From the NCBI GenBank assembly GCA_000092065.1, contig CP000582.1: 64,000 bases of DNA, one strand, 5' to 3'. Every line of letters starts with the position of its first letter. The first letter of the stretch is position 1. The translations under genes and the position numbers were made by a program. The DNA is from Ostreococcus lucimarinus. Taxonomy: Eukaryota. The notes under the pieces are model-generated. The model did not search any database. It had not been told where the DNA came from and saw only the letters and a program-made list of their open reading frames with translations. Below are positions 2,728 to 59,893 of the stretch, in pieces.

Positions 2728-4119
2728 CTACGCCGTCTTGAGTTTCTCGGCTTCGATCGAAGAATCCGGGAGTTTGGCCATCAACGCCGCGCCGGCGGTG
2801 GCGGCGACCGTGGACGACGCCAACACGGCGAGTTTCGCGACGTTGGCCGCCGAGGGCTGACCCGCGAGCGCCATCTCAACGAGGAACAAGCACATCGTGA
2901 AACCGATACCGCCGAGCAAACCGACGATGATGAGGTGGGAGTTGTTCATTCCGCTCGGAAGCTTGCCGATTTTGGACTTGACGGCGAGCCAGGACAAACC
3001 GGCGATGCCGACGGGCTTACCCAAGAGCAAGCCGAGCATGATGCCTTGACCGACGGGTTCGGTGAACACCTTGCTCACCATGCTTGCGTCTAAAGGCACG
3101 CCCGTGTTCGCCAACGCGAAGAGAGGCATGATGACGAGCGCGGAGAGCGGGGCGAACTTGTGCACCAAGTGATCCAAGAGCGTCGGTTCGCCGCCTTCGT
3201 GTTCGGGCGTCGCGTCGCTCCCGGCGGGCGCCATCGCGTGCGCGGGCACCGCGAACGCGGCGATGACGCCCGCGACATCGGCGTTGATGCCGCCTTGCAA
3301 CAGACAGTACCACAGGGCCACGCCGAGGGCGGCGTAAACAGCCATGTTGGTGACTTCCTTTTTGCACGCGACGAAGAGCGCCGCCGTGGCCGCCGCCGCG
3401 CCCGCTATGTACGACATCGTCAACGATTTCGCGAAGCACACGGCGATCACGGCGATCGCGCCCAGGTCGTCCACGGTGGCGAGGGTGAGCAAAAACGCCG
3501 CCACGCCGCCCGGCATTTTATTTTTAAAAAAGTTGTACACTCCCATGGCGAACGCGATGTCCGTCGCCATCGGAATCGCCCAACCCGCCGTCACCGCCGC
3601 CGCCGTCGCGCCCGGATTATTACACGCCAAATACACCCCCATGGGCACCAGCATCCCGCCCAGCGCGCCGATGCACGGCAACGCCGCCTGTTGCAGGCTT
3701 CGCAGCGAGCCGTGCACGAACTCGCGCTTGATCTCCAGCCCGACGGCGAAGAAGAAAATCGCCATCAACCCCTCGTTGACCCAGTGATGCAGGCTCATGT
3801 GCAGCGCCAGCGCCGCCGGCCCGACTTTTGCGTGCCAGAACGACAGATACGCCCCAGACATCGCGCTGTTCGCCAGCGCCAGCGACACCGCGGTGGCTCC
3901 GAGGAGCGCGATCGAGCCGAAGCCCGCGTCGAGCGCCGCGTGCACGTCGACGCCCTTCATGAACGTCCCCTGCTCGCTCTCCGCCCCGTCCGTCGTCGCG
4001 CGTGCCGCGACGCGCGCCCCGACGCGCGCGGATTTTTCCACGCGTCGCGTCGCGACGCCCGCGACGCCCGCGAGCGACGCCCGCGCGCGCACCGACGGTT
4101 TCCGCGTCGCTCGCGCCAT
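2728..4119 (-). CDS. nhaA: Na+/H+ antiporter, NhaA family (bacterial type), with N-terminal transit-peptide-like extension
   Basis: NhaA hallmarks: HHWVNEGLMAIFFFAVGLEIKREF, PMATDIAFAMGV, FLLTLATVDDLGAIAVIAV, with roughly 11 TM segments. ORF 2728..4488 is trimmed to Met at 4119 (MARATRKPSVRARASLAGVAGVATRRV..., Ala/Arg/Ser-rich like an organellar presequence). An alternative start is at 3960 (MKGVDVH). Confidence 0.6.
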   Translation of the reverse strand: MARATRKPSVRARASLAGVAGVATRRVEKSARVGARVAARATTDGAESEQGTFMKGVDVHAALDAGFGSIALLGATAVSLALANSAMSGAYLSFWHAKVGPAALALHMSLHHWVNEGLMAIFFFAVGLEIKREFVHGSLRSLQQAALPCIGALGGMLVPMGVYLACNNPGATAAAVTAGWAIPMATDIAFAMGVYNFFKNKMPGGVAAFLLTLATVDDLGAIAVIAVCFAKSLTMSYIAGAAAATAALFVACKKEVTNMAVYAALGVALWYCLLQGGINADVAGVIAAFAVPAHAMAPAGSDATPEHEGGEPTLLDHLVHKFAPLSALVIMPLFALANTGVPLDASMVSKVFTEPVGQGIMLGLLLGKPVGIAGLSWLAVKSKIGKLPSGMNNSHLIIVGLLGGIGFTMCLFLVEMALAGQPSAANVAKLAVLASSTVAATAGAALMAKLPDSSIEAEKLKTA

Positions 4120-4278
4120 CGAAATTCGACATTCGCGCGGACTTTTCCGCGCGTCGCGCGCGATCGAAGCGCGCGTCGGTCGCGCGCTCGCGCGCGCCGC
4201 GAGCATCCCGTCGATTCGCGTCGGTCGTCGATCGCACCGCGCGGTTCTCGCGCGCGCGTCGCGGTGCGACGCCGACGA

Positions 4279-5466
4279 ATGGCGCGAGCGGGACAAACTG
4301 CAAAAAGCGTCCCGCGACACTCGACGGCGCGCATGCGCGCGTCCGCGCGTCCGCGCGCGATCGTCGCGCGCGCGTCCAGCGCGTCGTTCGAGGATAAGTT
4401 GGCGCGCGCGCGCGGGCTGTTCGGCGTGGACTCCATCGACGCGCACGCGTCGCCGAAATCCGCGGGGTTTCGCGAGCGCGCGAGTCACGGCGTCGAGAAG
4501 ACGCGCGACGGCGCGCTGCGGCTGGTGAGCGTGCGCGCCGCGACGGGTGCGCTGGTGACGTCGGACGCGACGTCGCGCGACGACGCGGCGGGCGTCGAGC
4601 GGGCGAGGGAAATCTTCCTGAGGGTCGCGAACGACGACGCGTGGACGACGACGCGAGCGCGCGTGACGGCGGCGAATTTTTTAACGAATCGAACGTCGGA
4701 TGAGATCGTGATCGCGTGCACGCTGTCGGCGGAGAGCGGCGATGGCGACGACGCGACGTGGATGGAGTTCGCGGAGGCGATGCGAGCGCTCGACGACGCC
4801 GTCGTCGGGTGCGTTCGAAAGCGTAAGAAGACGCCGAAGCTCGTCGTCGGGCGCGATTACGTGACGGAGACCACGCGCTTGGTCGACGGTCGTTCGGTGG
4901 TTTTTAAACACGTCGAGGGGAGCTTTTCAAATCCGAACGGTGGCGTCGCCGAACTCACGGCGAATCATCTCGTTCGGATTTGCGCGGATATCGCCGGCCC
5001 GAAGACGAAATTCATCGAGCTGTACGCCGGTTGCGGAAATCACACGTGTTGCATGGCGCCGCAGTTTCCCGGCGGCGCGTTCGCGGTGGAGATTGATCCG
5101 GTTTTGGTGGAAGCGGCGCGAGAAAACTTTGCGCGCAACGGCGTTCGAGCGGAAATCGTGTGCGAACGCGCCGAGGATTGGATCGCGTCTCGCGAAAGTC
5201 CCACGAACGACCGCGACGTCGTCCTGCTCGTCGATCCACCGCGCGGTGGGTTGGACGCGCGCACGCTCGACGTCGTCACGCGCGAATTCGACGACGTCAT
5301 TTACGTCGCGTGTGACTGCGAATCACTCAAGCGAGACATCGACGACGAGCGCGTGGGATTCGCGGCGAGAGGGTTCGAACTGACATCGCTCGCGTGTTTC
5401 GACCACGCGCCGACGTCGCCGCGATGGATCGAAACCGTGGGGGTTTTTAAGAGGCGAGAGGCGTAG
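4279..5466 (+). CDS. tRNA (uracil-5)-methyltransferase, TrmA/RumA (TRM2-like) family
   Basis: Class I SAM MTase m5U motifs: ELYAGCGNHTC, LLVDPPRGGLD, VIYVACDCESLKRD. I take the first ATG (4279) in this frame after the divergent NhaA start. The last ~55 nt of the CDS plus the 3' flank form copy 1 of the 160-bp tandem repeat. Confidence 0.55.
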   Translation: MARAGQTAKSVPRHSTARMRASARPRAIVARASSASFEDKLARARGLFGVDSIDAHASPKSAGFRERASHGVEKTRDGALRLVSVRAATGALVTSDATSRDDAAGVERAREIFLRVANDDAWTTTRARVTAANFLTNRTSDEIVIACTLSAESGDGDDATWMEFAEAMRALDDAVVGCVRKRKKTPKLVVGRDYVTETTRLVDGRSVVFKHVEGSFSNPNGGVAELTANHLVRICADIAGPKTKFIELYAGCGNHTCCMAPQFPGGAFAVEIDPVLVEAARENFARNGVRAEIVCERAEDWIASRESPTNDRDVVLLVDPPRGGLDARTLDVVTREFDDVIYVACDCESLKRDIDDERVGFAARGFELTSLACFDHAPTSPRWIETVGVFKRREA

Positions 5467-21725: not shown

Positions 21726-22116
21726 CGATCGCGCGTTCGTGTCGATCGCGCCGTCCGCGACGCGTCGCCGAGTGGCGCGACGCCGCGCGCGTCGCGCCGT
21801 CTTTCGCGCGTCGTCTCAACCCTAGGCCAGGGTCGCCGTCGCCGGCGTCGTCGTCGTCGTCCGCGCCCGAGCGCGCAGGCTGGACAAAACGCGCGCGATG
21901 GTTTTTATCTCATGGGTCTACATTTCACTGAATACGTAGAAAACAAAACGACATTCGCATGTGTATTACATACACATTTTGTTGCACGCGCGTGTAATGA
22001 TCACGGGTCACGACTCAAGAGTATACATGTACGTATGGGTAAACAGTGACGATGCGTCGTCCGTCCCGACGGACCGACGCCCCGCACACCGACGCGCGCC
22101 GACGGTCGACCGCGCG

Positions 22117-25500: not shown

Positions 25501-26243
25501 TTAGGGCTTCTTGTCCTTCTTGTCCGTGTTCGCGCGGAAGCGACGCGGCGGTTCGCGGATGCGGCGCGCTTCGCGGGAGCGAACGCGCACGACCTTGGAG
25601 TGAATCGCAGCCGAAATCGAATAGTAAGCCTTTCTGTAAAGCTTCGGGAGCGTGTACGCCTCGAAGGCGCACGACTCTTGCAAATCCCGAATCGCCGCGC
25701 TCTCCACGATGTTGCGAACCATGAATCGCTTCACCGCCTTGTCCTTCGGCACGAGCGCGCCCGAGGATTCGCAAAACACACGCTTCACCTGCGAGGTCAA
25801 ACGAAATCATTCCCGTCAGTCTTCAGCACATAGATCCATCGCGTCACGCGCGCCGTTCACGCGCCACGCATCCGTCCGCGGCTTCGCGCCTCGCCGCGCG
25901 TCCCGAGCCAACCCTAGTGCCTCGCCGCGCCCCACCCATCGCGCTTCCCCACGCGCGCGCGCGCGCCCGAGCCACCATCCACGCCCCCCCCGCGACGCAT
26001 CGATATCCATCGATCGCATCGCCGCCTTCATCGTCGATGAATCACGCGCGCGCGCATCGCAAACCGCGTCGGTCCGCGCGCGCGCGATCGCGCCTAGGGC
26101 TTTCCCGTCATCCACCGTTTCTCCGTCGCGCGCGCGCGCGCGACGTCGCGATTCGCTCGCGCGCGCGATCGAGCGATGGTACGCACGTGACCTCGAGCCC
26201 CGGCGGGCTTGTTACGACCGTTCGCGCGACGTTTCTTGGGCAT
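25501..26243 (-). CDS. RPS26: 40S ribosomal protein S26 (eS26), two exons separated by a 398-bp intron
   Basis: Model is join(complement): exon 1 26243..26187 ([19 protein letters not shown]) and exon 2 25788..25501 ([85 protein letters not shown]...). The spliced 115-aa product aligns along its full length with eukaryotic eS26, which I recall as [39 protein letters not shown].... Donor GTGCGT, acceptor CTCGCAG, phase 0. Confidence 0.75.
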
Positions 26244-26510
26244 CTTGACGTTCCGATGCGTCGCGAAGAGAGGCCGCGCGCGTGGCGCGTCGTTCGTCTC
26301 GTGGGCGCTCGCGCCGTATTGCACCACGCAAATCGCCATCTGACACGTCTAGAATTTCACCACACAGCGTATCGACTTGATATAATACGAGAATTTGAAA
26401 TACACCCAGTATAAATAGTACCTCACTGCTGTCTGTCCGAATACCGAACGGTCGGTCGCCGCGGTCGCGACGCGCGACGCGCGACGCGCGGCGCGCACAC
26501 GCGCGCGCGC

Positions 26511-27131
26511 ATGTCGCGCGCCGACGGCGACGCGCTCGAGACGCGTCGCCTGTTCGGCGGCGCCGTCGTCCTCGACGTCCCGAGGCGGTTTCGCGATCTC
26601 TCGAGCGTCGTCCCGGTGCCCGACCACCAAGAGGTGTTCGCCGACGGCGCGCGCGACGAGACGCTCGTCGTCGAGCTCGTCGACGCGATCGCGCGCGAGG
26701 GCGAAGATTTGCGCGCGTTCGCGTTCGCGGACGCGTGCGAGGAGATGGAAGCGTCGAGCGCGACGTACGTGCGCGGACGCGAGCGCGCGCGAGGCGAGGA
26801 CGACGCGCGCGGGCGCGGGACGAGCGAGACGCACGTCGCGTACGGCGTCGCGCGCGTGCGACGGTCGCGAGAGACGAGCGCGAACGATATTGATTTGTGG
26901 GGCGGAATCGTGCGCGTGGCGTCGAAACGAACGGACGCGTTGATTTGGCACGCGCGACCGTTCGCGTTTGACGGCGACGCGACGACGCCGGGAGGGGAGC
27001 GCGCGAGACCGAGCGACGCCGACGCCGTGCGCGCGGGCGCCGTGGAGTGCTCGGACGTGTTAGACGCGGCGTTGAATTCGTTCGAGATCGTCGATTGGGG
27101 GTTATTCGGCGACGAGGCCGGCGAAGGGTAG
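26511..27131 (+). CDS. MOG1: MOG1/RANGRF Ran guanine-nucleotide release factor (Mog1p/PsbP-like fold)
   Basis: LFGGAVVLDVPRRFRDLSSVVPVPDHQEVFADGARDETLVVELVD parallels the Mog1 N-terminal signature I remember (LFGGA..., DLSDIRQVPDNQEVF..., SLIVELLE). The length, 206 aa, fits. Confidence 0.6.
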   Translation: MSRADGDALETRRLFGGAVVLDVPRRFRDLSSVVPVPDHQEVFADGARDETLVVELVDAIAREGEDLRAFAFADACEEMEASSATYVRGRERARGEDDARGRGTSETHVAYGVARVRRSRETSANDIDLWGGIVRVASKRTDALIWHARPFAFDGDATTPGGERARPSDADAVRAGAVECSDVLDAALNSFEIVDWGLFGDEAGEG

Positions 27132-27271: not shown

Positions 27272-29185
27272 ATGTCCTTATCACTCGATCCCGCGCGTGA
27301 ACGCGACGTTTTCGTTGAATGGGTGCGAAAGATGCACCTCCGCGCGCCAATCTTGCCGCCCGCGTACGTCCCGTACGACGACGCGAAGGCGGTGAGATCG
27401 CCGCGGGCGATCGCGCGTGATGCGCTGCTCGCGTTCGGTGCGGCAGTGAAGATCGAAAAGCTGCGCGATGGAGACGAGGACGCGGACGGGACGGAAAGCG
27501 AGACGACGAGCGGGACGACGACGGAGACGCTGTATAGAATCAAGGCGACGACGTCGCGAGGGTTAGAGTTGTTCGATAGCGACGTCACGGGCGTACCGAG
27601 ACGAGTCGTTTTGAACGATGAACACTGTGACGTGACGCGTGGGGTGGAAGTGGCGCTGATGAATATGGCGGCGGGGGCGCGGTGGCGCGCTCGATGCGAC
27701 TGGAGCGCGACGTACGGACACGACACGGCGAAGGCGCGAAGGTTGATCCCAGACCCGCGTTTGCGCGAGGGAGATGCGATTATATACGAGCTGGAGGTGG
27801 TGAACCGCATGCCCGTTCACGTGGTGCGCGTTCGAGAGCTTGAAGATGGATCCTCGGTGGCGCTCGCCGGAGGCGGTTGGGCGAGATGCACGAAAAAGAC
27901 GACTACAAGTGGAGGCGGGTGGGAGACGCCGAGACCACCTTTTGAGGTGACGATAGAGACTAGCGCGATGTTGGTGAAAGGTAAAACGAAAACGGGCGAC
28001 GAGCACGGTGAAGATGAGTTTATGGAGAAGAGGGTGGTGAGTTACGTTGTCGGAGACGGGCGGGTGCCGCTGGCGCTCGACGCGGCGGTGCGTACAATGC
28101 GCTTGAACGAAGAGGCGTTAGTGTGGAGCAACTACAGCGGATTCGGCAAAAACGTCACAAAGGCGTCGAAGCTTCGACGACTGATTCCGGCGCTTCCGAG
28201 CGATGGTTCCGAGCCCCTTCACGGCGTGGCGTACAAGGTGAAACTCGCGGCGATGCGACACGTGCGAGACGTCTTTAACGACGGCACGACAAAGAAGACA
28301 CGAACGCGCGAAGGTTTGGGCCAGTTCCCTTCTGACTGTCCCATGAATGATTGCATGGTGCGTGTGCACTTCATCCTGTCCACCGCGACAGCGATTGGCG
28401 CGCACAGCTCCTTGGCAGAGCGCTACGACACGCGCTCTGACGCTTCGTTGAAAGGCGCGCCATTCGAGTTTCGTCTCGGTTGTGGAGCGCTCCCTGAAGC
28501 TGTGGAAACGTCGATTCGCTTGATGATTCCAAAAGAAGAATCACGCGTAGTTCTCGACTTGACACTTGGCGAAGAAGCTCGTCAGCGAGGATACGGCGCG
28601 AAGAATTGTCGTCCAGACGCGCCGGGGAGCAAGTTCGGCGTCGTCGCGAACCTCGCCATGATTCAATGGGACGTCGTTCTCGAATCGTTCGACGCGGCTG
28701 TGAATTGGTATCAAGCAGATGTGAGCGACATGCTCGAAGAGGCGTTGTTGATCAAAGAAGAGGCGAATGCACTATTCAAGACGGAGGTGTACGAACTCGC
28801 GCGAGCCAAGTACGAAAAGACGCTCCACAAACTTGAGAGTCTTCGAGGGTTAGAGTCTAGCGATTTCGATCGCGTGGAAGCGATGAAATGTACTCTTGCG
28901 CTCAATCTCGTGGCAAGCTTACAGAAACTCCACCGACACGTCGACGCTCTGAAGCGAGTGAACAAGATTTTGGACTCGGATCCGGTGAACGCCAAGGCGT
29001 TGTTTCGACGATCTGTCTCCTACCTCGCCCTTCACGAGTTTGTCGCCGCGCGAGACGATTTATTCGCGTGTTTAGATGCGAATCCTAGCTTACAGAGCAC
29101 CGTAGCGAAACAATTGGACTTAGTCAAGCGCACCGAGGCGCAAGAACTCGAGTGCGAGCGCGCCGTCTTTCGAGGCAAATTCTAA
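27272..29185 (+). CDS. FKBP-like domain protein with C-terminal TPR repeats
   Basis: The C-terminal ~150 aa form three TPR-like repeats (EEANALFKTEVYELARAKYEKTLHKL; LALNLVASLQKLHRHVDALKRVNKILDSDPVNAKALFRRSVSYLALHEFVAARDDLFACLDANPS). The upstream beta-rich domains look like degenerate FKBP folds. This architecture resembles large plant FKBPs (FKBP42/62 type). Confidence 0.45.
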   Translation: MSLSLDPARERDVFVEWVRKMHLRAPILPPAYVPYDDAKAVRSPRAIARDALLAFGAAVKIEKLRDGDEDADGTESETTSGTTTETLYRIKATTSRGLELFDSDVTGVPRRVVLNDEHCDVTRGVEVALMNMAAGARWRARCDWSATYGHDTAKARRLIPDPRLREGDAIIYELEVVNRMPVHVVRVRELEDGSSVALAGGGWARCTKKTTTSGGGWETPRPPFEVTIETSAMLVKGKTKTGDEHGEDEFMEKRVVSYVVGDGRVPLALDAAVRTMRLNEEALVWSNYSGFGKNVTKASKLRRLIPALPSDGSEPLHGVAYKVKLAAMRHVRDVFNDGTTKKTRTREGLGQFPSDCPMNDCMVRVHFILSTATAIGAHSSLAERYDTRSDASLKGAPFEFRLGCGALPEAVETSIRLMIPKEESRVVLDLTLGEEARQRGYGAKNCRPDAPGSKFGVVANLAMIQWDVVLESFDAAVNWYQADVSDMLEEALLIKEEANALFKTEVYELARAKYEKTLHKLESLRGLESSDFDRVEAMKCTLALNLVASLQKLHRHVDALKRVNKILDSDPVNAKALFRRSVSYLALHEFVAARDDLFACLDANPSLQSTVAKQLDLVKRTEAQELECERAVFRGKF

Positions 29186-33048: not shown

Positions 33049-34113
33049 TTACAACGACGCGGCGACCATTTTCACGCAGTCGACCATGCGACAGCTGTAG
33101 CCGTACTCGTTGTCGTACCAAACGTAAAGCTTCAAGTGCGTGCCGTCGACGACCATCGTGGACTGCGCGTCGACAATGCCCGATCGCGGATCGTTGACGA
33201 AATCCGTGGACACGAGAGGTTGTTCTTCGTAACCCATGATGCCGACCAAAGGTCCTTCCTCGGATTTCGCCTTGAGCAAGGCGTTCACCTCTTCCACCGT
33301 CACCGCGCGCTTGGTCTCGAGAACGATATCCGTCAGAGACCCGTTGATGAGCGGCACGCGCACCGCGAGTCCGTTCAATTTACCCTTGAGTTCCGGAATG
33401 ATGAGCTGCACCGCCGTGGCGCTCCCCGTGGACGTCGGCGCCAAGTTTACCAACCCGCTCCTCGCCCGTCTCAAATCATCCTTCTTCGTGTTCGGCGCGT
33501 CCACCATCGACTGCGTGTTCGTCACGTTATGCACCGTCGTTATGCTTCCCCGATGCACCCCGATCTCCTTATGAATCGTGTAAATCACCGGCGCGATGCA
33601 ATTCGTCGTGCACGACGCCGCCGTCACCACTCGATGCTTCTCCGCGTCGTACTCCCCGTGATTCACCCCGTACACCACGTTCAGCGCCCCCTCGCACTTC
33701 ACCGGCGCCGACACCACCACCTTCTTCACCACCCCCCCGTGTTTCTCGCCGAAATACGCGCTCTCGAGCTTTTTCATCTTCAAAAACGCCCCCGTGCACT
33801 CCATCACCACCTCGCACCCCGCGCTCGACCACGGCGCGTCCTCCGGATCCTCGCACGCGCTGAACCCGATCCTGCGCTCCTCCCCGGCGTCCCCGACGAC
33901 CAAACACCGCGCGCCCTCGTCGTACCGCAGCGTTTTCGTCCATCGTCCGTGCACCGAGTCGAACTCGCCGAGGTACGCGCACGACGCCCCCGACCCGGGC
34001 GTCTCGTTCACGTGCACCACCTCGAGCGTCGGGTCGTCATACGCCACGCGAAACGCCAGCCGACCGATGCGACCGAAGCCGTTTATCCCCACTCTCGTCC
34101 TCGCGCGCGGCAT
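33049..34113 (-). CDS. GAPDH: Glyceraldehyde-3-phosphate dehydrogenase (GAPDH)
   Basis: MPRARTRVGINGFGRIGRLAFR (NAD-binding GxGxxG), ASCTTNCIAPV (catalytic Cys), and WYDNEYGYSCRMVD at the C-terminus. The 354-aa protein is taken from Met at 34113; the upstream part of ORF 33049..35334 is Arg-rich filler. Confidence 0.8.
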   Translation of the reverse strand: MPRARTRVGINGFGRIGRLAFRVAYDDPTLEVVHVNETPGSGASCAYLGEFDSVHGRWTKTLRYDEGARCLVVGDAGEERRIGFSACEDPEDAPWSSAGCEVVMECTGAFLKMKKLESAYFGEKHGGVVKKVVVSAPVKCEGALNVVYGVNHGEYDAEKHRVVTAASCTTNCIAPVIYTIHKEIGVHRGSITTVHNVTNTQSMVDAPNTKKDDLRRARSGLVNLAPTSTGSATAVQLIIPELKGKLNGLAVRVPLINGSLTDIVLETKRAVTVEEVNALLKAKSEEGPLVGIMGYEEQPLVSTDFVNDPRSGIVDAQSTMVVDGTHLKLYVWYDNEYGYSCRMVDCVKMVAASL

Positions 34114-34491
34114 CGTCGCGCGTCGCGCGTCGACGTCGTCGATCGATCGCGCGCGTTCGAGTGACGATTGGAATATTCCGCCGTCGCGCGCGATCGACGC
34201 CTCGACGCGGTCGTCGATCGACGAGTCGAGGTTCGACGAGATCGATCGATCGACGCGACGCGGTTCGAGCGCGCGCGCGTCGGCCCTGGATGTCTGAAAC
34301 GAGACTCGGTTCACACACGGATTTCGGGACGACGCATCGCCATCCGGTCGCGGTCGACGCGGCGCGCGCGCGCGACGCGCGCGCGAGACGCGCGCGCGCA
34401 TCGCGAGCGGCGCGCGAGCGAGGCGCACGCGAGGCACGCGCGCGCGAGATCGACGCGGTCGAGCGCGACGGGAAACGCGCGCGCGAAGGCG

Positions 34492-35277
34492 ATGATGTCG
34501 ACGACGCTGGGGCGATCGGTGGTGGCGACGACGACGCGACGCGGCGACGCGGCGCGAGCGCGGGCGAAGAAGAAACGGAGCGGCGGCGGACGGTCGGGGA
34601 ACGATGATTACGCGCAGGATTTCGCGCTGTATGGGTCGTTCGATGAGTCGTACACCGAGGGCGCGGGGTTGTTGCTCGGGAAGGGGGAGCTGCGGTCGAG
34701 CGGGACGCGCGCGAAGGGGCGGTCGGGAGCGGGATACGACGCCGTCGCGGGCGTGCTCGACGCGCTGGCGGAGGTGAAGAGTGAGAGGAAGTCGCGGGGG
34801 GGAGGAGGGAGGCGCTACGATGCGTATGGGGATGATGACGAGGACGCGGCGGACGAGGGCGCGGCGGCGGACGGGACGGCGGCGGGCGAGGGCGAAGACT
34901 TTGACGCGGAATCCGCGCCGAAGGCGAAGGCTCGACCGGTGCGATCGGCGCCCGCGATGGCGGCGCGACCGGTGCCGACGCAACCGCAAGCGCCGAGACC
35001 GAAACCGAAGGTTGTGGTGAAACCGAAGAAACCGGCGCCGGCGGCGACGATGGATCCGGCGCAGACCAAGGCCAAGGCGAGCCAAACTTTGAGCAAGTGG
35101 GGTTTCTCCGCGAGCGACGTGGAGACGGCGATCGAGGCGACGAGCGCGAGCGCTGGCGACGGCGCGACGGCGAAAAAACGGCAAATTGCCGCGCTCGATT
35201 GGATGTTGGCGAATTTGCCCATCGACGACGTGCCGGATGAATATAAATTGGAGGCGCAACAGGCTCAATCCGCGTGA
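34492..35277 (+). CDS. Hypothetical low-complexity protein with conserved C-terminal helical segment
   Basis: Start at MMSTTLGR (34492). The body is Ala/Gly/Asp/Lys-rich. The C-terminus (KASQTLSKWGFSASDVETAIEATSASAGDGATAKKRQIAALDWMLANLPIDDVPDEYKLE) looks like a small UBA/CUE-like helical domain. The call is weak. Confidence 0.3.
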   Translation: MMSTTLGRSVVATTTRRGDAARARAKKKRSGGGRSGNDDYAQDFALYGSFDESYTEGAGLLLGKGELRSSGTRAKGRSGAGYDAVAGVLDALAEVKSERKSRGGGGRRYDAYGDDDEDAADEGAAADGTAAGEGEDFDAESAPKAKARPVRSAPAMAARPVPTQPQAPRPKPKVVVKPKKPAPAATMDPAQTKAKASQTLSKWGFSASDVETAIEATSASAGDGATAKKRQIAALDWMLANLPIDDVPDEYKLEAQQAQSA

Positions 35278-45138: not shown

Positions 45139-45782
45139 ATGGTGGCCAAGGCCCCGGCGAAGCGCAAGCCCGCGGCGAAGAAACCGGCGGCGAAGAAGAA
45201 ACCAGCGGCGAAGAAGAAGCCCGCGGTGAAGAAGACGACGGCGACGAAGAAGAAGGCGGCGCCGAAGAAGAAGCCGGCGGGTGCGTATACGTGACGCGGC
45301 GGTGATCGCGCGACGCGGGGGCGCGCGCGGCGCGGCGCGCTCGACGCGCGACGACGCGCGAAGAAGAATTGTGCGCGAATGCGATCGCGCGCGAAATTAA
45401 GGGATTGCGCGCGCGCGCGAGACGCGCGAGCGAAGGGGGAGAAGAGGGACTGACGACGTGTGATTTGAACGCGACAGCCAAGAAACCGGCGGCGAAGAAG
45501 AAGCCGGCGGCGAAGAAGAAGCCGGCGGCGAAGAAGAAGCCAGCGGGTGCGTGTAGAGGGGGGGCGGCGCGCGACGACGCGGAGGCGCGAATCGCGCGCG
45601 CCAGCTCATCTCGAAATCGCCGCGCGCGAGGAAGAAGAGAGGACTGACGAGACGATGATTTTCGCGCGATCGCAGCCAAGAAGAAGCCCGCGGCCAAGAA
45701 GAAGCCGGCGGCTAAGAAGAAGCCGGCGGCCAAGAAGAAGCCGGCGGCCAAGAAGGCCAAGGCCAAGGCTTCCAAGAAGTGA
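45139..45782 (+). CDS. Lys/Ala/Pro-rich basic protein (histone H1 C-terminal-tail-like, no globular domain), three exons
   Basis: Model is join(45139..45280, 45478..45546, 45676..45782), giving 105 aa: MVAKAPAKRKPAAKKPAAKKKPAAKKKPAVKKTTATKKKAAPKKKPA / A KKPAAKKKPAAKKKPAAKKKPA / A KKKPAAKKKPAAKKKPAAKKKPAAKKAKAKASKK. Both donors are identical (CCGGCGG or CCAGCGG|GTGCGT, phase 1). The acceptors are ...gacag|CC and ...tcgcag|CC. The six-frame track only shows the pieces as separate short ORFs. Confidence 0.5.
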
Positions 45783-46301: not shown

Positions 46302-48512
46302 TCACGACGCGCGCGAAAAGAGAACGCGATGCAAACCCTTAATCTCTCGCACGTCCGCGCGCAAGAGTTCGCGAACGTCATCGTCTGCGAACACGCTCGG
46401 ACGCTCCGAACCGCCCGCGCCCTCTCGCCGCTCGAGCTCGCGGAGCGCCTCGGCTATGGCCTCGCCTTTGCTCTCGCCTCGACGCACGCGACGGACGTTT
46501 GGCGCGCGAACGCCGTGTGTTTTCAAATACACCTCGATCGCTTCGACGTTCGAGTTCCTCGTGATCACGAACGCGCGCGCGTCGTGCGAGGTAAGCAAGC
46601 CCACCAAGTCGGCGTCTCGCGACTTGAGCTCGCACGCCCGGCGCAACCCCGCGGGATCGAGCTCGCGGAAGTTCTTTGGAAGCGGCGATGCGCCGGCTTT
46701 TGTGGCGCATATCGTGCGGTCGAAATCTAAGAAGACGCAGTACGCGTCGAGTGTTTCCACGAGCTGGACGACGTCCTCGGCATCGCCGCGTGATATGCCG
46801 CAAATTTCGCAAGAGGCCTCGCGCTCGCACTTGAGGCACCGCCTCGAGTGCCGGCACCACGCCTCGCGAAGACACGAAGAAGTCACGGGACAGCGCCCTT
46901 CGTTTCGCGCGGTTTCTTCGCACACCATGCACGTGTTCGCCGTGACCCACAAATTTGAGAACGAGCGCTCGCACGTCCCGCAACGATGGGTGCCGGTGAC
47001 GTGGAGTAAGCGCCCGTCGCTCGCGCCGGCGAGGTCGCTCGAGGCGACCGCCGCCGTCATCCCCGCGTAGAATTTTTGCGTCGTCTGGGTGTACTGATTG
47101 ATGATCTTGGCCAGCGCGAAATCATCGGGCACGAACGACGTGGTATTAATACTATCTCCCGAAGCGAACAAAACCTTCGTGGGCTCATCGAGGATCTTCT
47201 GGATCCACTTTGTCGTCTCTCGAAGCGCCGGCGCCGCCCCCTCGAGGGCGTTCGCCCCTCGGTCGACCACGCACGCGCGTTGAAGTTTGTCCAACGCTTC
47301 GCGCGATGGAGGTATTTTCGCCCCGCTCGTGTCGAAGTCGTCGCGTAAGATATCGTCCGGTGTCGCGTGATCTTTGCGAAGCCTCGCGGCGAGCGTCTCA
47401 GAGTTTTGGGCGATTTCATTCGCGAAGCGTAAAAACTCCCTCAGTTCGGCTCGAATCCAGAGCGCCTTCGTCGCCCCTCGAGCGATGAGAGAAAGCTCGA
47501 TAAATCGAACGTAATGCGCCGGGAGATTGAGCTCTTCGCGCACGCGAGTCATGATATGCTCGAAATCTTTCGTCAGCGCAGGCGTCATCGCCCGCGCGTC
47601 CATCGCCGCCGGCGGCGCGACGGTCAAATCTTTCAATGATTCCTCGACGGCGTCCGATGATGACTCAGCGCCGCCGATTCGAGCGGCATCGGCGGCGGCT
47701 TTGCCGACGTATCCGTGCGTCACCAACGACCGTGGCATCGACGCCAACCGACGCGGACGACTCAAATTTGGATGTCTCGGCACGCAGCATATCTGCTTCG
47801 TGAAAACGCGCCCATCGAAGATCGCTTTGGCGGCGCCCAAACACCGCCCCCTCGCCGTGCAAATCTCGCGATATCTCGCCGCGTCGACGTACCCGGAGGC
47901 TTGCCCAAAGTCTCCTCTATAAAATGTCATCAATCGTCGCAAACGCATCTCCAACACCTCTATCTCGTATTGCGAATGTAACAACACCTTCTTTAGGTTC
48001 ACGCAATTCCTCCTCGTCCCGAACGCATCGCTCACCGCGCCCGCGCGGTCGATGAATTCCGCCACCGCGCCGCCGAGCCGCGAACCGAAGACGCCGACGA
48101 CGTCTCTTCGCACTAAATCCCACCTTCCTTGCTCAAAAGTCAAGATATTTCTCGCGTCAACGTCCAGCACACACTGTCCAGGTATCGCATCGCGCGTCTC
48201 TCCGCCGTAAAGCGCCCTCACGCGCCGTTCGAACGTCTCCGCGTCCTCGTCGCCGCGACGCGCCGCGAGCGCGTTCGCGGCGTCTGCGAGCGTCGTCGAG
48301 ACCACCATCGATGACGTCGTCCGCGCGCACCACCGCGCGCGCGTCTCGCGCCGCCGAGCGTCGACTCGAGCGCAATCACCCACGACGCGCGCGCGCGCGT
48401 CGCTCGTTCGCGCGCTCGCGTCGCGCGCGCGCCTCCGGACCGCCGCTTTCGTCGCCGCGCGTCGTCGCGCGTCGTCGTCGACGCCGAGACGTTCGATTTC
48501 GCGCGCATCCAC
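46302..48512 (-). CDS. Hypothetical large protein with Cys-rich segment and C-terminal HAD-like (DxDxT) motif
   Basis: A 736-aa ORF with a complex, non-repetitive sequence. It has a Cys-rich block (HRCGTCERSFSNLWVTANTCMVCEETARNEGRCPVTSSCLREAWCRHSRRCLKCEREASCEIC) followed by CVFLDFDRTICATKAG, a HAD motif I-like DxDxT. The N-terminal start is uncertain. I did not recognise the family. Confidence 0.4.
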   Translation of the reverse strand: MDAREIERLGVDDDARRRAATKAAVRRRARDASARTSDARARVVGDCARVDARRRETRARWCARTTSSMVVSTTLADAANALAARRGDEDAETFERRVRALYGGETRDAIPGQCVLDVDARNILTFEQGRWDLVRRDVVGVFGSRLGGAVAEFIDRAGAVSDAFGTRRNCVNLKKVLLHSQYEIEVLEMRLRRLMTFYRGDFGQASGYVDAARYREICTARGRCLGAAKAIFDGRVFTKQICCVPRHPNLSRPRRLASMPRSLVTHGYVGKAAADAARIGGAESSSDAVEESLKDLTVAPPAAMDARAMTPALTKDFEHIMTRVREELNLPAHYVRFIELSLIARGATKALWIRAELREFLRFANEIAQNSETLAARLRKDHATPDDILRDDFDTSGAKIPPSREALDKLQRACVVDRGANALEGAAPALRETTKWIQKILDEPTKVLFASGDSINTTSFVPDDFALAKIINQYTQTTQKFYAGMTAAVASSDLAGASDGRLLHVTGTHRCGTCERSFSNLWVTANTCMVCEETARNEGRCPVTSSCLREAWCRHSRRCLKCEREASCEICGISRGDAEDVVQLVETLDAYCVFLDFDRTICATKAGASPLPKNFRELDPAGLRRACELKSRDADLVGLLTSHDARAFVITRNSNVEAIEVYLKTHGVRAPNVRRVRRGESKGEAIAEALRELERREGAGGSERPSVFADDDVRELLRADVREIKGLHRVLFSRAS

Positions 48513-49259
48513 CGCGCCGACGACGCGATCTCACCGCCCGCGCTCGCCGCGCAGACGCGCAAACGCGCCCCTTCTTTTCGTCCCGCGCGCCTCCCGCGCC
48601 CGGCGTCCCGCGCCCGCGTCGCGCACTCGCGCCGCGCGCCGCGCGCGACGCGCGCGCGTCGATCCCCTCGCGCGCGCGCGCGTCCGACCGACCGCCTCCA
48701 CGTATTCCGCGCGCGAAACGCCCATCAAAGTGGAATCAGAACCGACGAACGCCGATCGTCTCGCGCGATGGCGTTCGCGACGCGCCGAGTACGGCGTTCG
48801 CGACGCGCGTCGCGCGCTAAATTCGCGAGTCCCGCGCGTCGAGTCGCGACCGGTCGCGGGGGCGCGGGCCCCGCGACTCTTTGAATTCTTAGACGTTTCA
48901 GACCTTGAATACGAGATCATCGATCGTTCGGGACTCAACAGCGTGGGACTCCCCATCGGCGCGATTCAAATTCGCCCGTTGGCCGCGCTTCGGTCCCCTC
49001 GCGTCACAGCGCGACGCGACATGTCGTCGCCGGCGAAGGAGAACCCCGCGAGCGGGGACGGTGGCGTCAAGACGCCGTCATCGGTGCGCGCCGCGGGCGA
49101 GCGCGCGATCGCGAGCGCGACGAGATGCGAATCGCGACGACGATGACGACGCGGTTTGATTTGAACGCGCGTCGGATGGACGAATGCGGGGACGACGATG
49201 GCGCGCGCGCGCGCGAACGCGAGACTGACGGAGACGACGAACGGATTCGAACGTAGATA

Positions 49260-57926: not shown

Positions 57927-58793
57927 TTACGGCGTTCGGCATAGCCAGAAATGTATGAATGGCTGCGCGACGACGACGGCGAGCAACACGTAGTTTTGTG
58001 ACATGCTCTGCGAATAACCGCTGTGTCTCGCCTCGCTGAAGATGATTCGCTTCAAAGTTTTCGCCATGAACACCGCGTTGCACAGCGCAGACCAAATGAG
58101 GAAAAACCAAAACACGTACGTCTTGTTGAACATTTTCGACATGAGCGTCATCGAGCCGTACGTAAAGGTGTACCCGACGTACGCCGCGACGTCGAGAATC
58201 GGCGCCGACACGATGTGGTTCGCCGAGCTCGTCGAACGCAGCGCCACCCAAATAAACGCCGACTCGCCCGCCCACAGCAGCCCGCTCCACCACGCGTGCG
58301 TCGCGAGCGCCTCGGGCGTAAACGAACCGCTCTTGGACGAAAACACTTCGCGAATCGAAGCCGTGAGCACGTACGTCCAGAACGCCATGAGTGGAATGTA
58401 CAAATCCGGCGCGTTGATATCGTTCCGCGGCGGTTTGTACGCCGTGCCTCCCGCCACGCTCTCGGGCAATCGCGCCCACGAACCTTTATGCAAAAACGGA
58501 CACAACACCAATCGCATCTTGTGAAACACGTACGACTCGGTGACGTCGAAGTACGCCCGCATCGACGCCGTGCTGAAATACTTGGCGTAATTCGAACTCA
58601 CGAACGACGCGCCGTCGTTCAAAAACTTCCCTCCGTACACCCCCAATCCCGCCGCGGCTAAGCTCCGCGGACTCGTCGGCGCGCCGAACCCCCCGCCGAA
58701 CCCTCCGCCGAACCCTCCGCCCTGACTCGAGCTCGCCTCGCGCCCCCCCATCCCGTCGTACGCGCCCGGCGCGCGCCCGTACCCCCCGTCCAT
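57927..58793 (-). CDS. YIF1: YIF1 (Yip1-interacting factor) family membrane protein
   Basis: Gly/Phe-rich N-terminus (GGFGGGFGGGFG), then the YIF1 core (YFDVTESYVFHKMRLVLCPFLH, KPPRNDINAPDLYIPLMAFWTYVL) and 4-5 TM helices. Confidence 0.6.
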   Translation of the reverse strand: MDGGYGRAPGAYDGMGGREASSSQGGGFGGGFGGGFGAPTSPRSLAAAGLGVYGGKFLNDGASFVSSNYAKYFSTASMRAYFDVTESYVFHKMRLVLCPFLHKGSWARLPESVAGGTAYKPPRNDINAPDLYIPLMAFWTYVLTASIREVFSSKSGSFTPEALATHAWWSGLLWAGESAFIWVALRSTSSANHIVSAPILDVAAYVGYTFTYGSMTLMSKMFNKTYVFWFFLIWSALCNAVFMAKTLKRIIFSEARHSGYSQSMSQNYVLLAVVVAQPFIHFWLCRTP

Positions 58794-59404
58794 CGCTCCC
58801 GGCGCGCCGTACGCCGTCGCCGTCGCCGTCGCCGCGCCGTCGCCGCGCGCCGCCGCGCGCGTCCCGTTCGCGTTCGCCGCGTTCGCCTCGTTCGCCCCGT
58901 GTCCCCATCCCGGCGCCGCGCTCTGGCTTTGCCATCCCCCGTGATCACTCTGCGCCGCGCGTCGTCCGTCGTTCGTCCCTCGTCAGTCGTCGCGACGCGC
59001 GAGACGCGCAAAGTTTCGCGAATCCGTGCCGTTCGCGCTTTCAAACATTCATCGCGCGCGCGCTCGCGACGTCGCGCGCGTCGTCGCGCGCGCACCTGCG
59101 GCGCGCTCGACCATCCCTGCTGCGCCATCGTCGCGCGTTCGCGCGGTCCGTCCTCGCGCGCGGTCGCGCGTCGCGCTGCGTCGTCGCGATCGCGACGGGA
59201 CGACTCGACTTTATGCTTCGTCTCACTGTTTGCCCATACGAGAGACAGATTTCGTCCCGAACCCTATCGCGCGACGCGCGTCGTCGCCGCACTCGCGCGC
59301 GCGACGATCGACGCGCGCTCGACGAGCGGTCGACGCGCACGCGCGCGCGGTCGACGTCCGGCGCGGTCGCGACGTCAGAAGTCGCGATCGCGACGACGAC
59401 GACG

Positions 59405-59893
59405 ATGCGAACGAAGGCGAAGGCGCTGCGAGCGCTGATGACGGCGCGGCGACGCGCGTACGCCACGAGCGAGGCGCTGAGCGCGGCGAGACCGACGGAG
59501 ACGCCCTCGGCGTCGTACGCGGAGGCGCAGAAACGCGGCAGGGGGTTCTACCGCGCGGTGTGTCGCGAGGTGCCGTGGGTGCTGGATAATTACGCGCTTC
59601 GCGAGGTCGCCACGGAGACGCACGTGCGACGCGTGCTCAAGGATTTGATGCGAGCGCACGCGGAAAAGATCGATGGGGCGTCGAACGATGACGCCGTGCG
59701 AGCGGGACTGCTCGATCGGGCGCTGATGCGAGGACGCGAGGAGTTGGTGGCGCTCGAGGCGCACCACTTTCAGCGACACCACATGATCACGCAATTCGTC
59801 AACGCCAAGTGCGTGGACGCGGTGCGAGGACGCGACGGCGAGAGCGTCTTCTTGAGCGAATTTTTGAGCGGCGGGCGGAAGGAATTGAACTGA
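59405..59893 (+). CDS. NDUFA6: NADH dehydrogenase [ubiquinone] 1 alpha subcomplex subunit 6 (NDUFA6/B14, LYR family)
   Basis: LYR-type motif (GFYRAVCREVPWVLDNYALREV, compare LYRRALR...IPRWLHNYKL), plus the downstream HHFQRHHMITQFV block typical of B14. ORF 59213..59893 is trimmed to Met at 59405. Confidence 0.5.
   Translation: MRTKAKALRALMTARRRAYATSEALSAARPTETPSASYAEAQKRGRGFYRAVCREVPWVLDNYALREVATETHVRRVLKDLMRAHAEKIDGASNDDAVRAGLLDRALMRGREELVALEAHHFQRHHMITQFVNAKCVDAVRGRDGESVFLSEFLSGGRKELN

What the first reader, a model, noticed from the sequence alone, without database searches (positions are those of the whole stretch)
25501..26243. RPS26 is split by a 398-bp GC-rich intron after codon 19, and is invisible as a single ORF
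The eS26 N-terminus ([19 protein letters not shown]) and the remainder ([22 protein letters not shown]...) lie 398 bp apart on the minus strand, joined by GTGCGT...CTCGCAG in phase 0. The intron is unusually long and GC-rich (CGCGCG runs) for such a compact genome. In Micromonas-type genomes, long repetitive introns can be introner elements.
Basis: partly seen in the sequence, partly recalled or inferred. Interest (0 to 1): 0.5.

Follow-up and report, generated by a model that had tools for sequence, protein, structure and literature searches.

The report
Old ordinary intron in ribosomal gene RPS26
The ribosomal protein gene RPS26 of the tiny marine green alga Ostreococcus lucimarinus really is split by a 398-base intron, but it is an ordinary, ancient and already-annotated intron rather than a mobile "introner" element.

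Summary
On the minus strand, exon 1 is 26243-26187, a 398-nt GT...AG intron is 26186-25789, and exon 2 is 25788-25501. Splicing gives a full-length 114-aa eS26.

The window is Ostreococcus lucimarinus CCE9901, not a Micromonas-type genome. The spliced protein is 100% identical to the GenBank model XP_001416505.1, so the intron is already annotated.

The intron carries the canonical Ostreococcus signals: GTGCGT donor, extended branch point GACTGACG 27 nt before the CAG acceptor. It has no second copy in the 64-kb window. All 7 metagenome hits to an intron 22-mer are the RPS26 locus itself. It has no terminal inverted repeats or target-site duplication.

An intron sits at the same codon-19, phase-0 site in four Ostreococcus lineages, three Micromonas-like lineages, Bathycoccus and Cymbomonas (259-625 nt). 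It is therefore ancient, not a recent insertion.

It is about twice the species' mean intron length (187-188 bp; range 26-1773). Its GC of 0.70 is only the 84th percentile locally.

One by-product may merit follow-up. A plant telo-box-like motif, TAGGG(T/C)T, is conserved inside this otherwise unalignable intron in all seven GC-rich lineages.

The parts
26187..26243 (-). RPS26 (eS26) exon 1 coding part: ATG plus 18 codons, [19 protein letters not shown]
   Evidence: Pfam PF01283 match starts at residue 1. 100% identity to XP_001416505.1.
25789..26186 (-). 398-nt canonical U2-type spliceosomal intron, phase 0, GC 0.70, with five (CG)n runs
   Evidence: An orthologous intron occupies the same site in 8 other lineages.
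26181..26186 (-). 5' splice site GTGCGT
   Evidence: The same or a near-identical donor (GTGCGT/GTGAGT/GTACGT) occurs in all orthologues.
25814..25821 (-). Extended branch-point motif GACTGACG (branch A at 25816, 27 nt before the 3' splice site)
   Evidence: PMC3879977 names this motif as the extended branch point of canonical Ostreococcus introns.
25789..25791 (-). 3' splice acceptor CAG
   Evidence: An in-frame CAG explains the '...Q|VKRVFCE' read-through ORFs in other species.
25501..25788 (-). RPS26 exon 2 coding part (95 codons plus TAA)
26094..26102 (+). Telo-box-like motif, site 1: CTAGGGCTT, antisense to the gene, at intron nt 86
   Evidence: The only CTAGGGYTT in the 64-kb window (expected 0.11). 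Shares the 13-mer CTAGGGCTTTCCC with the O. tauri-like intron, where it is in sense orientation.
25910..25916 (-). Telo-box-like motif, site 2: TAGGGTT, sense, at intron nt 271
   Evidence: A second site lies at nt 257-271 in L008, L010 and L019 as well.
25816..26115 (-). Spurious 99-aa ORF inside the intron, called as a gene by metagenome pipelines
   Evidence: No Pfam hit. Substitutions are spread 9/6/9 over codon positions and the sister lineage has a stop. Not called in L006, which carries a 1-nt indel.
26265..26273 (-). Pyrimidine tract CCTCTCTTC 22-30 nt upstream of the ATG; inferred TOP/TCT-like transcription start region
   Evidence: a comparable tract in all lineages. Tara unigene translations start 'LF...' (= CTNTTY). 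This is inference only.
26511..27131 (+). Divergently transcribed neighbour (Mog1/PsbP-like, PF04603) sharing a 267-nt promoter region with RPS26
   Evidence: The same head-to-head arrangement occurs in the Micromonas-like and Bathycoccus loci.

Best explanation
This is the single-copy cytosolic ribosomal protein gene RPS26 (eS26) of Ostreococcus lucimarinus. It is interrupted after codon 19 by one regular, ancient U2-type spliceosomal intron.

The pre-mRNA is spliced using the species' canonical signals: a GTGCGT donor, the extended branch point GACTGACG 27 nt upstream of the acceptor, and a CAG acceptor. This joins 19 codons to 95 codons in phase 0.

The intron was already present in the common ancestor of Mamiellales and Cymbomonas. 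It has been kept, always at above-average length, while its sequence drifted and its GC content followed each genome's GC. This is the usual pattern of 5'-proximal introns retained in highly expressed ribosomal-protein genes of intron-poor genomes. It is not a mobile introner.

Shown: coordinates, signals, product, orthology of position, absence of repeats, and splicing of the orthologues. Inferred: splicing at this very locus, and the reason for retention.
For: - Product: full-length Pfam S26e match and 100% identity to the annotated protein XP_001416505.1.
- Organism: the neighbouring 637-aa FKBP is identical to XP_001416264.1 of O. lucimarinus CCE9901.
- Signals: GTGCGT, GACTGACG with the branch A 27 nt from the CAG. 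The motif is described as canonical for Ostreococcus (PMC3879977).
- Orthology: an intron at the identical site and phase in the sister Ostreococcus lineage (398 nt), lineage L022 (363 nt), O. tauri-like (363 nt), three Micromonas-like lineages (490-528 nt), Bathycoccus (259 nt) and Cymbomonas (625 nt). Taxon names come from 90% clusters.
- Splicing: MMETSP transcripts of Micromonas and Bathycoccus read ARGH|VKRVFCE contiguously. A Tara unigene carries the O. lucimarinus-type 5'UTR joined to exon 1 and exon 2.
- No repeats: blastn of the intron against the window finds only (CG)n matches, and all 7 metagenome hits to a 22-mer are the same locus.
- Selection pattern against the sister lineage: exons 99-100% identical, intron 92.5%, flanks 83-90%.
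- Published context: mean intron 187-188 bp, range 26-1773 bp, with more and longer introns in highly expressed genes (PMC2367439).
Against: - No RNA-seq or EST reads from O. lucimarinus itself were available here, so splicing at this locus rests on the annotation, orthologous transcripts and one chimeric unigene.
- The full 13.2-Mb genome could not be searched. A low-copy family of diverged relatives is excluded only indirectly, by the orthology of the intron position.
- The intron is consistently longer than average in every lineage, and it shows no indels against the sister lineage while the flanks have many. 'Ordinary' may therefore hide a functional constraint; see the telo-box-like motif.
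Confidence: 0.9

Rival explanations
1. The intron is an introner element: a recently proliferated, transposon-like repetitive intron of the kind seen in Micromonas pusilla.
For: Only circumstantial. The intron is longer than average, GC-rich and contains CG repeats. Introners exist in the related genus Micromonas (PMC4815162).
Against: - No second copy in 64 kb.
- All 7 metagenome 22-mer hits are the RPS26 locus.
- No TIR or TSD.
- The intron is present at the same site in 9 lineages spanning Mamiellales and Cymbomonas. It is present in all 13 environmental O. lucimarinus-type copies fetched, with no presence/absence polymorphism.
- In the three introner papers read here, no introner is reported from Ostreococcus. 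Ribosomal-protein genes are the only class lacking introners in M. pusilla.
- The organism is not Micromonas.
Confidence: 0.02
2. The intron is retained, and kept long, because it carries a DNA-level cis-regulatory element. This would be a plant-type telo-box (interstitial telomere-repeat motif), acting as an intronic enhancer of ribosomal-protein gene transcription.
For: - TAGGG[TC]T is found in 7 of 7 GC-rich Mamiellales introns, although the introns are otherwise unalignable between genera. The per-intron chance is 0.002-0.046.
- Position is conserved: nt 64-86, with a second site at nt 257-271.
- In six other loci there are 9 hits inside the introns and 1 outside (binomial P=7e-8).
- CTAGGGYTT occurs once in the 64-kb window, in this intron.
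- Site 1 is inverted in O. lucimarinus but its 13-mer is kept. This fits an orientation-independent DNA site and not an RNA element.
- Both sites are untouched by the 30 substitutions against the sister lineage.
- In plants, telo boxes concentrate in 5'UTRs and the first two introns, and occur in 83% of rice ribosomal-protein genes (PMC3022908).
- O. lucimarinus POT1 binds plant-type TTTAGGG telomeric DNA (GGGTTTAGGGT is its best substrate), which is consistent with plant-type telomeres (PMC2794166).
Against: - The motif was noticed post hoc.
- The Ostreococcus versions differ from the canonical AAACCCTA at one base; exact matches occur only in two Micromonas-like lineages.
- The motif is absent from the low-GC Bathycoccus and Cymbomonas introns.
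- No other ribosomal-protein gene could be examined, so a regulon-wide role is untested.
- No binding or expression data exist.
Confidence: 0.3
3. The intron hosts a non-coding RNA (such as a snoRNA), or a conserved RNA structure that bridges the 5' splice site and branch point, as in long yeast ribosomal-protein introns.
For: The fold is somewhat more stable than shuffles (z=-2.6, 1 of 100 shuffles). No indels against the sister lineage.
Against: - Rfam at permissive thresholds gives only CG-hairpin noise, best E=1.2.
- 0 of 138 predicted pairs show compensatory change.
- 11 of the 17 pairs touched by substitutions are broken in the sister lineage, and substitutions do not avoid paired positions (P=0.11).
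- There is no conserved block between genera apart from the 7-9-nt motif.
Confidence: 0.03
4. The locus is a decaying or unexpressed copy, and the functional eS26 is an intron-less gene elsewhere.
For: None found.
Against: - Exons are 99-100% identical to the sister lineage while the intron and flanks diverge.
- The locus is identical across environmental populations.
- Only one eS26 locus is present in the window, and only one O. lucimarinus eS26 model appears in that protein cluster.
- Synteny with Mog1 is conserved across genera.
Confidence: 0.01

Closest known systems
Annotated O. lucimarinus CCE9901 gene for 'Ribosomal protein S26, component of cytosolic 80S ribosome and 40S small subunit' (XP_001416505.1 / ABO94798.1)
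   Same: The identical 114-aa product, and therefore the same exon-intron structure.
   Different: Nothing detectable. The finding rediscovers this model.
Canonical ('regular') spliceosomal introns of Ostreococcus: GT-AG with the extended branch point GACTGACG (Irimia and Roy 2008, as cited in PMC3879977)
   Same: GTGCGT donor, exact GACTGACG, branch point 27 nt before the CAG, phase-0 restoration of the ORF.
   Different: About twice the mean length of 187-188 bp.
5'-proximal introns retained in ribosomal-protein genes of intron-poor eukaryotes (for example yeast; Parenteau 2011, as cited in PMC3879977; Lanier 2008, PMC2367439, for O. lucimarinus)
   Same: A highly expressed ribosomal-protein gene with a single intron near the 5' end, longer than the genome average and conserved in position over long times.
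   Different: No regulatory role has been shown here, and no intron-encoded snoRNA was detected.
Micromonas introner elements (D-IE1, D-IE2, ABC-IE; PMC4815162, PMC3879977, PMC4540971)
   Same: A spliceosomal intron in a Mamiellales alga with a clear branch point.
   Different: Not repetitive, not lineage-specific, no polymorphism for presence, a different genus, and located in a gene class that lacks introners even in M. pusilla.
Atypical short introns of the Ostreococcus chromosome-2 low-GC region (40-65 bp, non-canonical signals; described in PMC2367439)
   Same: Same genus.
   Different: This intron is 398 nt, GC-rich and has canonical signals.
Plant telo box (AAACCCTA[A]) in 5'UTRs and first introns of ribosomal-protein genes (PMC3022908, PMC2576244)
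   Same: A telomere-repeat-like motif about 170 nt downstream of the inferred transcription start, in the first intron of a ribosomal-protein gene, in either orientation. Exact AAACCCTA occurs in two Micromonas-like orthologues.
   Different: The O. lucimarinus copies are one-mismatch variants (AAGCCCTA, CAACCCTA). No association with site II or TEF boxes was checked. The motif is known only from this one gene here, and binding factors are untested.

Membership tests
eS26 / Ribosomal_S26e (PF01283) | Full-length match to the family profile above the curated cut-off | tested here: met
   151.7 bits against a cut-off of 27, residues 1-109 on profile positions 1-107 of 108. 100% identical to the annotated eS26.
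Canonical U2-type spliceosomal intron of Ostreococcus | GT donor and AG acceptor that restore one open reading frame | tested here: met
   GTGCGT...CAG, phase 0, 57+288 nt giving 114 aa.
Canonical U2-type spliceosomal intron of Ostreococcus | Extended branch-point motif GACTGACG a short distance upstream of the acceptor | tested here: met
   Exact motif at 25821-25814 (minus strand), branch A 27 nt from the 3' splice site. The motif definition comes from PMC3879977.
Canonical U2-type spliceosomal intron of Ostreococcus | Removal from the transcript, shown by split reads or cDNA | tested here: inconclusive
   Orthologous junctions are contiguous in MMETSP transcripts of Micromonas and Bathycoccus. 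One chimeric Tara unigene carries the O. lucimarinus-type 5'UTR plus exon 1 plus exon 2. No RNA-seq or EST data of CCE9901 were accessible.
Introner elements | Many copies with high sequence identity within one genome | tested here: not met
   No copy in the 64-kb window beyond (CG)n matches of 60 nt or less. The 7 metagenome contigs sharing an intron 22-mer are all the RPS26 locus. The whole genome was not searchable.
Introner elements | Recent, lineage-specific insertion: absent from the orthologous site in related species, often polymorphic in populations | tested here: not met
   The intron is present at the same site and phase in 9 lineages and in all 13 environmental O. lucimarinus-type copies.
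Introner elements (DNA-transposon type) | Terminal inverted repeats and target-site duplication | tested here: not met
   First 40 nt against the reverse complement of the last 40 nt gives 15 of 40 matches. The longest shared junction word is 4 nt.
Chromosome-2 atypical Ostreococcus introns | 40-65 bp in length and lacking canonical splice and branch signals | tested here: not met
   398 nt with canonical signals. The definition comes from PMC2367439.
Intron-hosted snoRNA or other Rfam family | Match to a covariance model, or a conserved structured core | tested here: not met
   Best Rfam E-value 1.2, far below gathering scores. No covariation.
Plant telo box | Sequence AAACCCTA(A), identical to the telomere repeat unit | tested here: inconclusive
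   Exact in L008 and L012. One-mismatch variants occur in O. lucimarinus, O. tauri-like and L010. Absent in Bathycoccus and Cymbomonas.
Plant telo box | Preferential location just downstream of the transcription start (5'UTR, first introns) | tested here: met
   Site 1 lies 64-86 nt into the first intron, about +170 from the inferred start. Nine of ten motif hits in the other loci lie in the intron.
Plant telo box | Enrichment across ribosomal-protein and translation genes, and binding by telomere-repeat-binding factors | not testable with these tools
   No other Ostreococcus ribosomal-protein gene could be fetched, and there are no binding data.

The most novel reading that the evidence does not exclude
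The RPS26 intron has been kept for hundreds of millions of years across Mamiellales because it houses an orientation-independent, telomere-repeat-like (telo-box) transcriptional element. On this reading the telo-box control of ribosomal-protein genes, known from flowering plants, would already have existed in early-diverging marine green algae, and intron retention in these minimal genomes would be partly explained by intron-resident enhancers.
Probability: 0.25. Interest if true: 0.45.

Novelty: already known. Interest (0 to 1): 0.15.

Why it matters
As stated, the finding matters little. It re-derives a gene model deposited with the 2007 O. lucimarinus genome, and the introner idea is refuted.

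It has some practical value. This intron makes eS26 invisible to bacterial-style gene callers: hundreds of metagenome contigs carry truncated 92-99-aa calls plus a spurious 99-aa 'gene' inside the intron. It also misled at least one O. tauri GenBank model (221 aa).

The only point of wider interest is the conserved telo-box-like motif. If it is general to ribosomal-protein genes, it would give a concrete, testable reason why the most compact free-living eukaryotic genomes keep long 5' introns in highly expressed genes. It would also extend a plant regulatory element to prasinophytes.

Tried and rejected
I used neighbouring ORFs and cluster look-ups instead.
- An Rfam scan at E up to 10 found only CG-hairpin noise.
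- I attempted a signal-based census of other introns in the window, to give a local length and GC baseline. The high-GC sequence gives long spurious open frames in all phases, so most candidates were ambiguous. I abandoned this in favour of published statistics and a composition percentile.
- The TAGGGTT hit at 59260 first looked as if it lay in a second long GC-rich intron. The ORF layout shows a divergent promoter/5' region instead, so it is not used as evidence.
- The Palenik 2007, Derelle 2006 and Piganeau 2009 papers are not held.
- A conserved RNA structure is rejected.
- The intronic 99-aa ORF as a real gene is rejected.
- Global alignments of the intron between O. lucimarinus and the more distant Ostreococcus lineages were unreliable and are not used.

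Full report
**1. Observation**

Reading the minus strand and translating confirms every coordinate given.
- The ATG is at 26243. Exon 1 ends at 26187 after 19 codons ([19 protein letters not shown]).
- The intron runs 26186-25789. It is 398 nt, GTGCGT...CTCGCAG, phase 0.
- Exon 2 runs 25788-25501 and ends in TAA.

The joined 114-aa protein matches Pfam Ribosomal_S26e over essentially the whole profile (E=1.1e-44). No single ORF spans the gene. tblastn shows this is the only eS26 locus in the window.

**2. Organism and prior knowledge**

Exact-sequence look-ups identify the source.
- The neighbouring 637-aa ORF (27272-29185) is identical to the FKBP-type isomerase XP_001416264.1 of Ostreococcus lucimarinus CCE9901.
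- The same protein cluster contains a 114-aa 'Ribosomal protein S26' (XP_001416505.1/ABO94798.1). It is 114/114 identical to the spliced product.

The window is therefore O. lucimarinus or a near-identical strain, not a Micromonas-type genome.

Metagenome contigs from many marine samples carry the same locus at 99.2-100% identity. Their bacterial-style gene calls show only the exon-2 ORF and a spurious 99-aa ORF inside the intron.

**3. Anatomy of the intron**

The splice signals are canonical.
- The donor is GTGCGT.
- The acceptor is CAG.
- The branch A lies 27 nt upstream of the acceptor, within an exact GACTGACG. Verhelst et al. (PMC3879977) give this as the extended branch-point sequence of canonical Ostreococcus introns.

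Internally the only repeats are (CG)n runs that pair with one another. There are no terminal inverted repeats, and no target-site duplication beyond a trivial 4-mer.

The 99-aa ORF inside the intron is not coding. The 24 substitutions against the sister lineage fall 9/6/9 on codon positions, and the sister lineage has a stop.

Rfam finds nothing, with a best E-value of 1.2. The RNA fold is modestly more stable than shuffles (z=-2.6). No predicted pair shows compensatory change (0 of 138), and 11 of the 17 pairs touched by substitutions are broken in the sister lineage.

**4. Is it unusual?**

Lanier et al. (PMC2367439) report a mean O. lucimarinus intron of 188 bp from ESTs and 187 bp from the genome annotation, with a range of 26-1773 bp. 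Both intron number and mean intron length correlate positively with expression. At 398 nt, this intron is about twice the mean and well within the range, in a gene class expected to be highly expressed.

Its GC of 0.70 is the 84th percentile of 398-nt windows in this 64-kb window. The adjacent Mog1 coding sequence has GC 0.71. The window contains 192 (CG)n runs of four or more units, in more than 20 clusters. Composition is therefore not diagnostic of anything special.

**5. Introner test**

(a) Repeats. blastn of the intron against the window (word size 7, no low-complexity filter) returns only the self-hit and short (CG)n matches. At the M. pusilla density of roughly one introner per 2 kb, dozens of copies would be expected in 64 kb.

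All 7 are the RPS26 locus itself. Five are O. lucimarinus populations and two are a sister lineage.

(c) Orthology. I fetched DNA for homologues whose bacterial-style ORFs read '...Q|VKRVFCE'. An intron lies at exactly the same site and phase in:
- an O. tauri-like lineage (363 nt);
- a further Ostreococcus lineage, L022 (363 nt);
- the sister lineage (398 nt);
- three Micromonas-like lineages, including an M. polaris-like one (490, 510 and 528 nt);
- Bathycoccus (259 nt, GC 0.46);
- the NCBI gene model of Cymbomonas tetramitiformis (625 nt).

The site is uninterrupted in Pycnococcus, in Coccomyxa and in a land plant (Anisodus), which instead has an intron directly after the ATG. The intron therefore predates the divergence of Mamiellales and at least one pyramimonad. 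It is not a recent insertion.

(d) Polymorphism. All 13 environmental O. lucimarinus-type copies carry the intron at 397-399 nt. There is no presence/absence polymorphism.

(e) Literature. In the three introner papers read here, no introner is reported from Ostreococcus. In M. pusilla, ribosomal structural genes are the one category entirely lacking introners.

The introner reading is rejected.

**6. Expression and splicing evidence**

CCE9901 RNA data could not be accessed.
- MMETSP transcript-derived proteins for M. pusilla-type, M. bravo, M. polaris and Bathycoccus read ARGHVKRVFCE without interruption. The orthologous intron is therefore spliced at this junction.
- A Tara unigene (P0003) begins with LFATHRNVK, which is the translation of the O. 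lucimarinus-type 5'UTR. It runs straight through exon 1 into exon 2. Its 3' half is Bathycoccus-like, so it is probably an assembly chimera and counts only as suggestive.
- One O. tauri GenBank model (OUS42129.1, 221 aa) reads into the intron, which is an annotation error at this site.

**7. Evolutionary pattern**

Against the sister lineage:

| Compartment | Identity | Gap events |
|---|---|---|
| Exon 1 | 100% | 0 |
| Exon 2 | 99% (2 of 62 four-fold sites differ) | 0 |
| Intron | 92.5% | 0 |
| 255 nt upstream | 83% | 13 |
| 230 nt downstream | 90% | 18 |

The intron evolves faster than the codon-biased coding sequence but is cleaner than the intergenic DNA. Between genera the introns are unalignable.

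**8. A by-product: a conserved telo-box-like motif**

The multi-genus alignment exposed a recurrent CTAGGG(T/C)TT.
- TAGGG[TC]T occurs on the sense strand at intron nt 64-77 in the O. tauri-like, L022 and three Micromonas-like lineages.
- In O. lucimarinus and its sister lineage it occurs at nt 86 on the antisense strand. It shares the 13-mer CTAGGGCTTTCCC with the O. tauri-like intron.
- A second copy lies at nt 257-271 in four lineages.
- The per-intron chance from dinucleotide shuffles is 0.002-0.046.
- In the six other GC-rich loci, 9 hits lie inside the introns (2.65 kb) and 1 outside (18.4 kb), binomial P=7e-8. The outside hit is the CCCTAA of the RPS26 stop-codon context.
- CTAGGGYTT occurs once in the whole window, in this intron.
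- Neither site is touched by the 30 substitutions against the sister lineage.

The reverse complement in two Micromonas-like lineages is an exact AAACCCTA, the plant telo box. In Arabidopsis and rice this motif is concentrated in 5'UTRs and the first two introns, and it occurs in 83% of rice ribosomal-protein genes (PMC3022908; positional ranges in PMC2576244). O. lucimarinus POT1 binds plant-type TTTAGGG telomeric DNA, with GGGTTTAGGGT as its best substrate, which is consistent with plant-type telomeres (PMC2794166).

The inversion with retention of the motif argues for a DNA-level, orientation-independent site. There are caveats:
- the motif was found post hoc;
- the Ostreococcus versions are one-mismatch variants;
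- it is absent from the low-GC Bathycoccus and Cymbomonas introns;
- no other ribosomal-protein gene could be examined.

I rate a regulatory telo-box role at about 0.25-0.3.

**9. Verdict**

The feature is an ordinary, ancient, canonical spliceosomal intron in a ribosomal-protein gene, and it is already annotated. Interest is low. The conserved telomere-like motif inside the intron is the only element that might merit follow-up.

Noticed in passing
window 26094-26102 (+) and 25910-25916 (-); L007, L008, L010, L012, L019, L022 introns: A telo-box-like motif, TAGGG(T/C)T, is conserved at similar offsets inside the RPS26 intron of all seven GC-rich Mamiellales lineages. It is inverted in O. lucimarinus, and its reverse complement is an exact AAACCCTA in two Micromonas-like lineages. 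It is nearly absent from the flanking DNA (9 hits inside against 1 outside, P=7e-8).
   Followed up: partly
window 26265-26273 (-), and the equivalent region in L007-L012, L019, L020, L022: A pyrimidine tract (CCTCTCTTC and variants) lies about 22-35 nt upstream of the RPS26 ATG in every lineage. Tara unigene translations begin 'LF...' (= CTNTTY). This suggests a TOP/TCT-initiator-like transcription start, typical of ribosomal-protein genes.
   Followed up: no
window 26244-26510; L008, L009, L010: The head-to-head RPS26-Mog1 (PF04603) gene pair, with a short shared promoter (267 nt here), is conserved in Ostreococcus, the Micromonas-like lineages and Bathycoccus.
   Followed up: partly
window 25816-26115 (-); L001-L005: Metagenome pipelines call a 99-aa 'gene' inside the intron, and call only the 92-99-aa exon-2 ORF for eS26, on hundreds of contigs. 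The O. tauri GenBank model OUS42129.1 (221 aa) reads into the intron. These are systematic annotation artefacts caused by this intron.
   Followed up: yes
window intron 25789-26186 compared with L019: Against the sister lineage, CpG positions in the intron are substituted less often (6 of 172) than non-CpG positions (24 of 226). The intron has no indels, while the flanks have 13 and 18 gap events. The cause is unexplained: possibly maintenance of the (CG)n runs, or a constraint on length or chromatin.
   Followed up: no
window 45281-45477 and 45547-45675 (+): A lysine/alanine/proline-rich (AKKKPAAKKKPA repeats, histone-H1-like) ORF appears to be interrupted by two similar GC-rich introns (197 and 129 nt). 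Each has GTGCGT and GACTGACG signals and separates near-identical short repeat exons. This may be a tandem exon-intron duplication.
   Followed up: no
window 21818-21824 (-) and 59260-59266 (-): The two other non-stop-codon TAGGGTT hits in the window lie in 5' regions. One is about 180-200 nt upstream of the tRNase Z-like (Lactamase_B) ORF that starts at 21997/22027. The other is at the 5' end of the 59213-59893 (+) ORF, in a divergent promoter shared with the 57927-58793 (-) gene.
   Followed up: partly
window-wide; for example 637-1743, 3792-4647, 33872-34787, 48243-49038: There are more than 20 clusters of (CG)n runs (192 runs of four or more units in 64 kb). Several sit next to GACTGACG branch-point motifs (9 in the window against 4.2 expected), so CG-repeat-rich introns and spacers appear to be a general feature of this genome.
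   Followed up: partly
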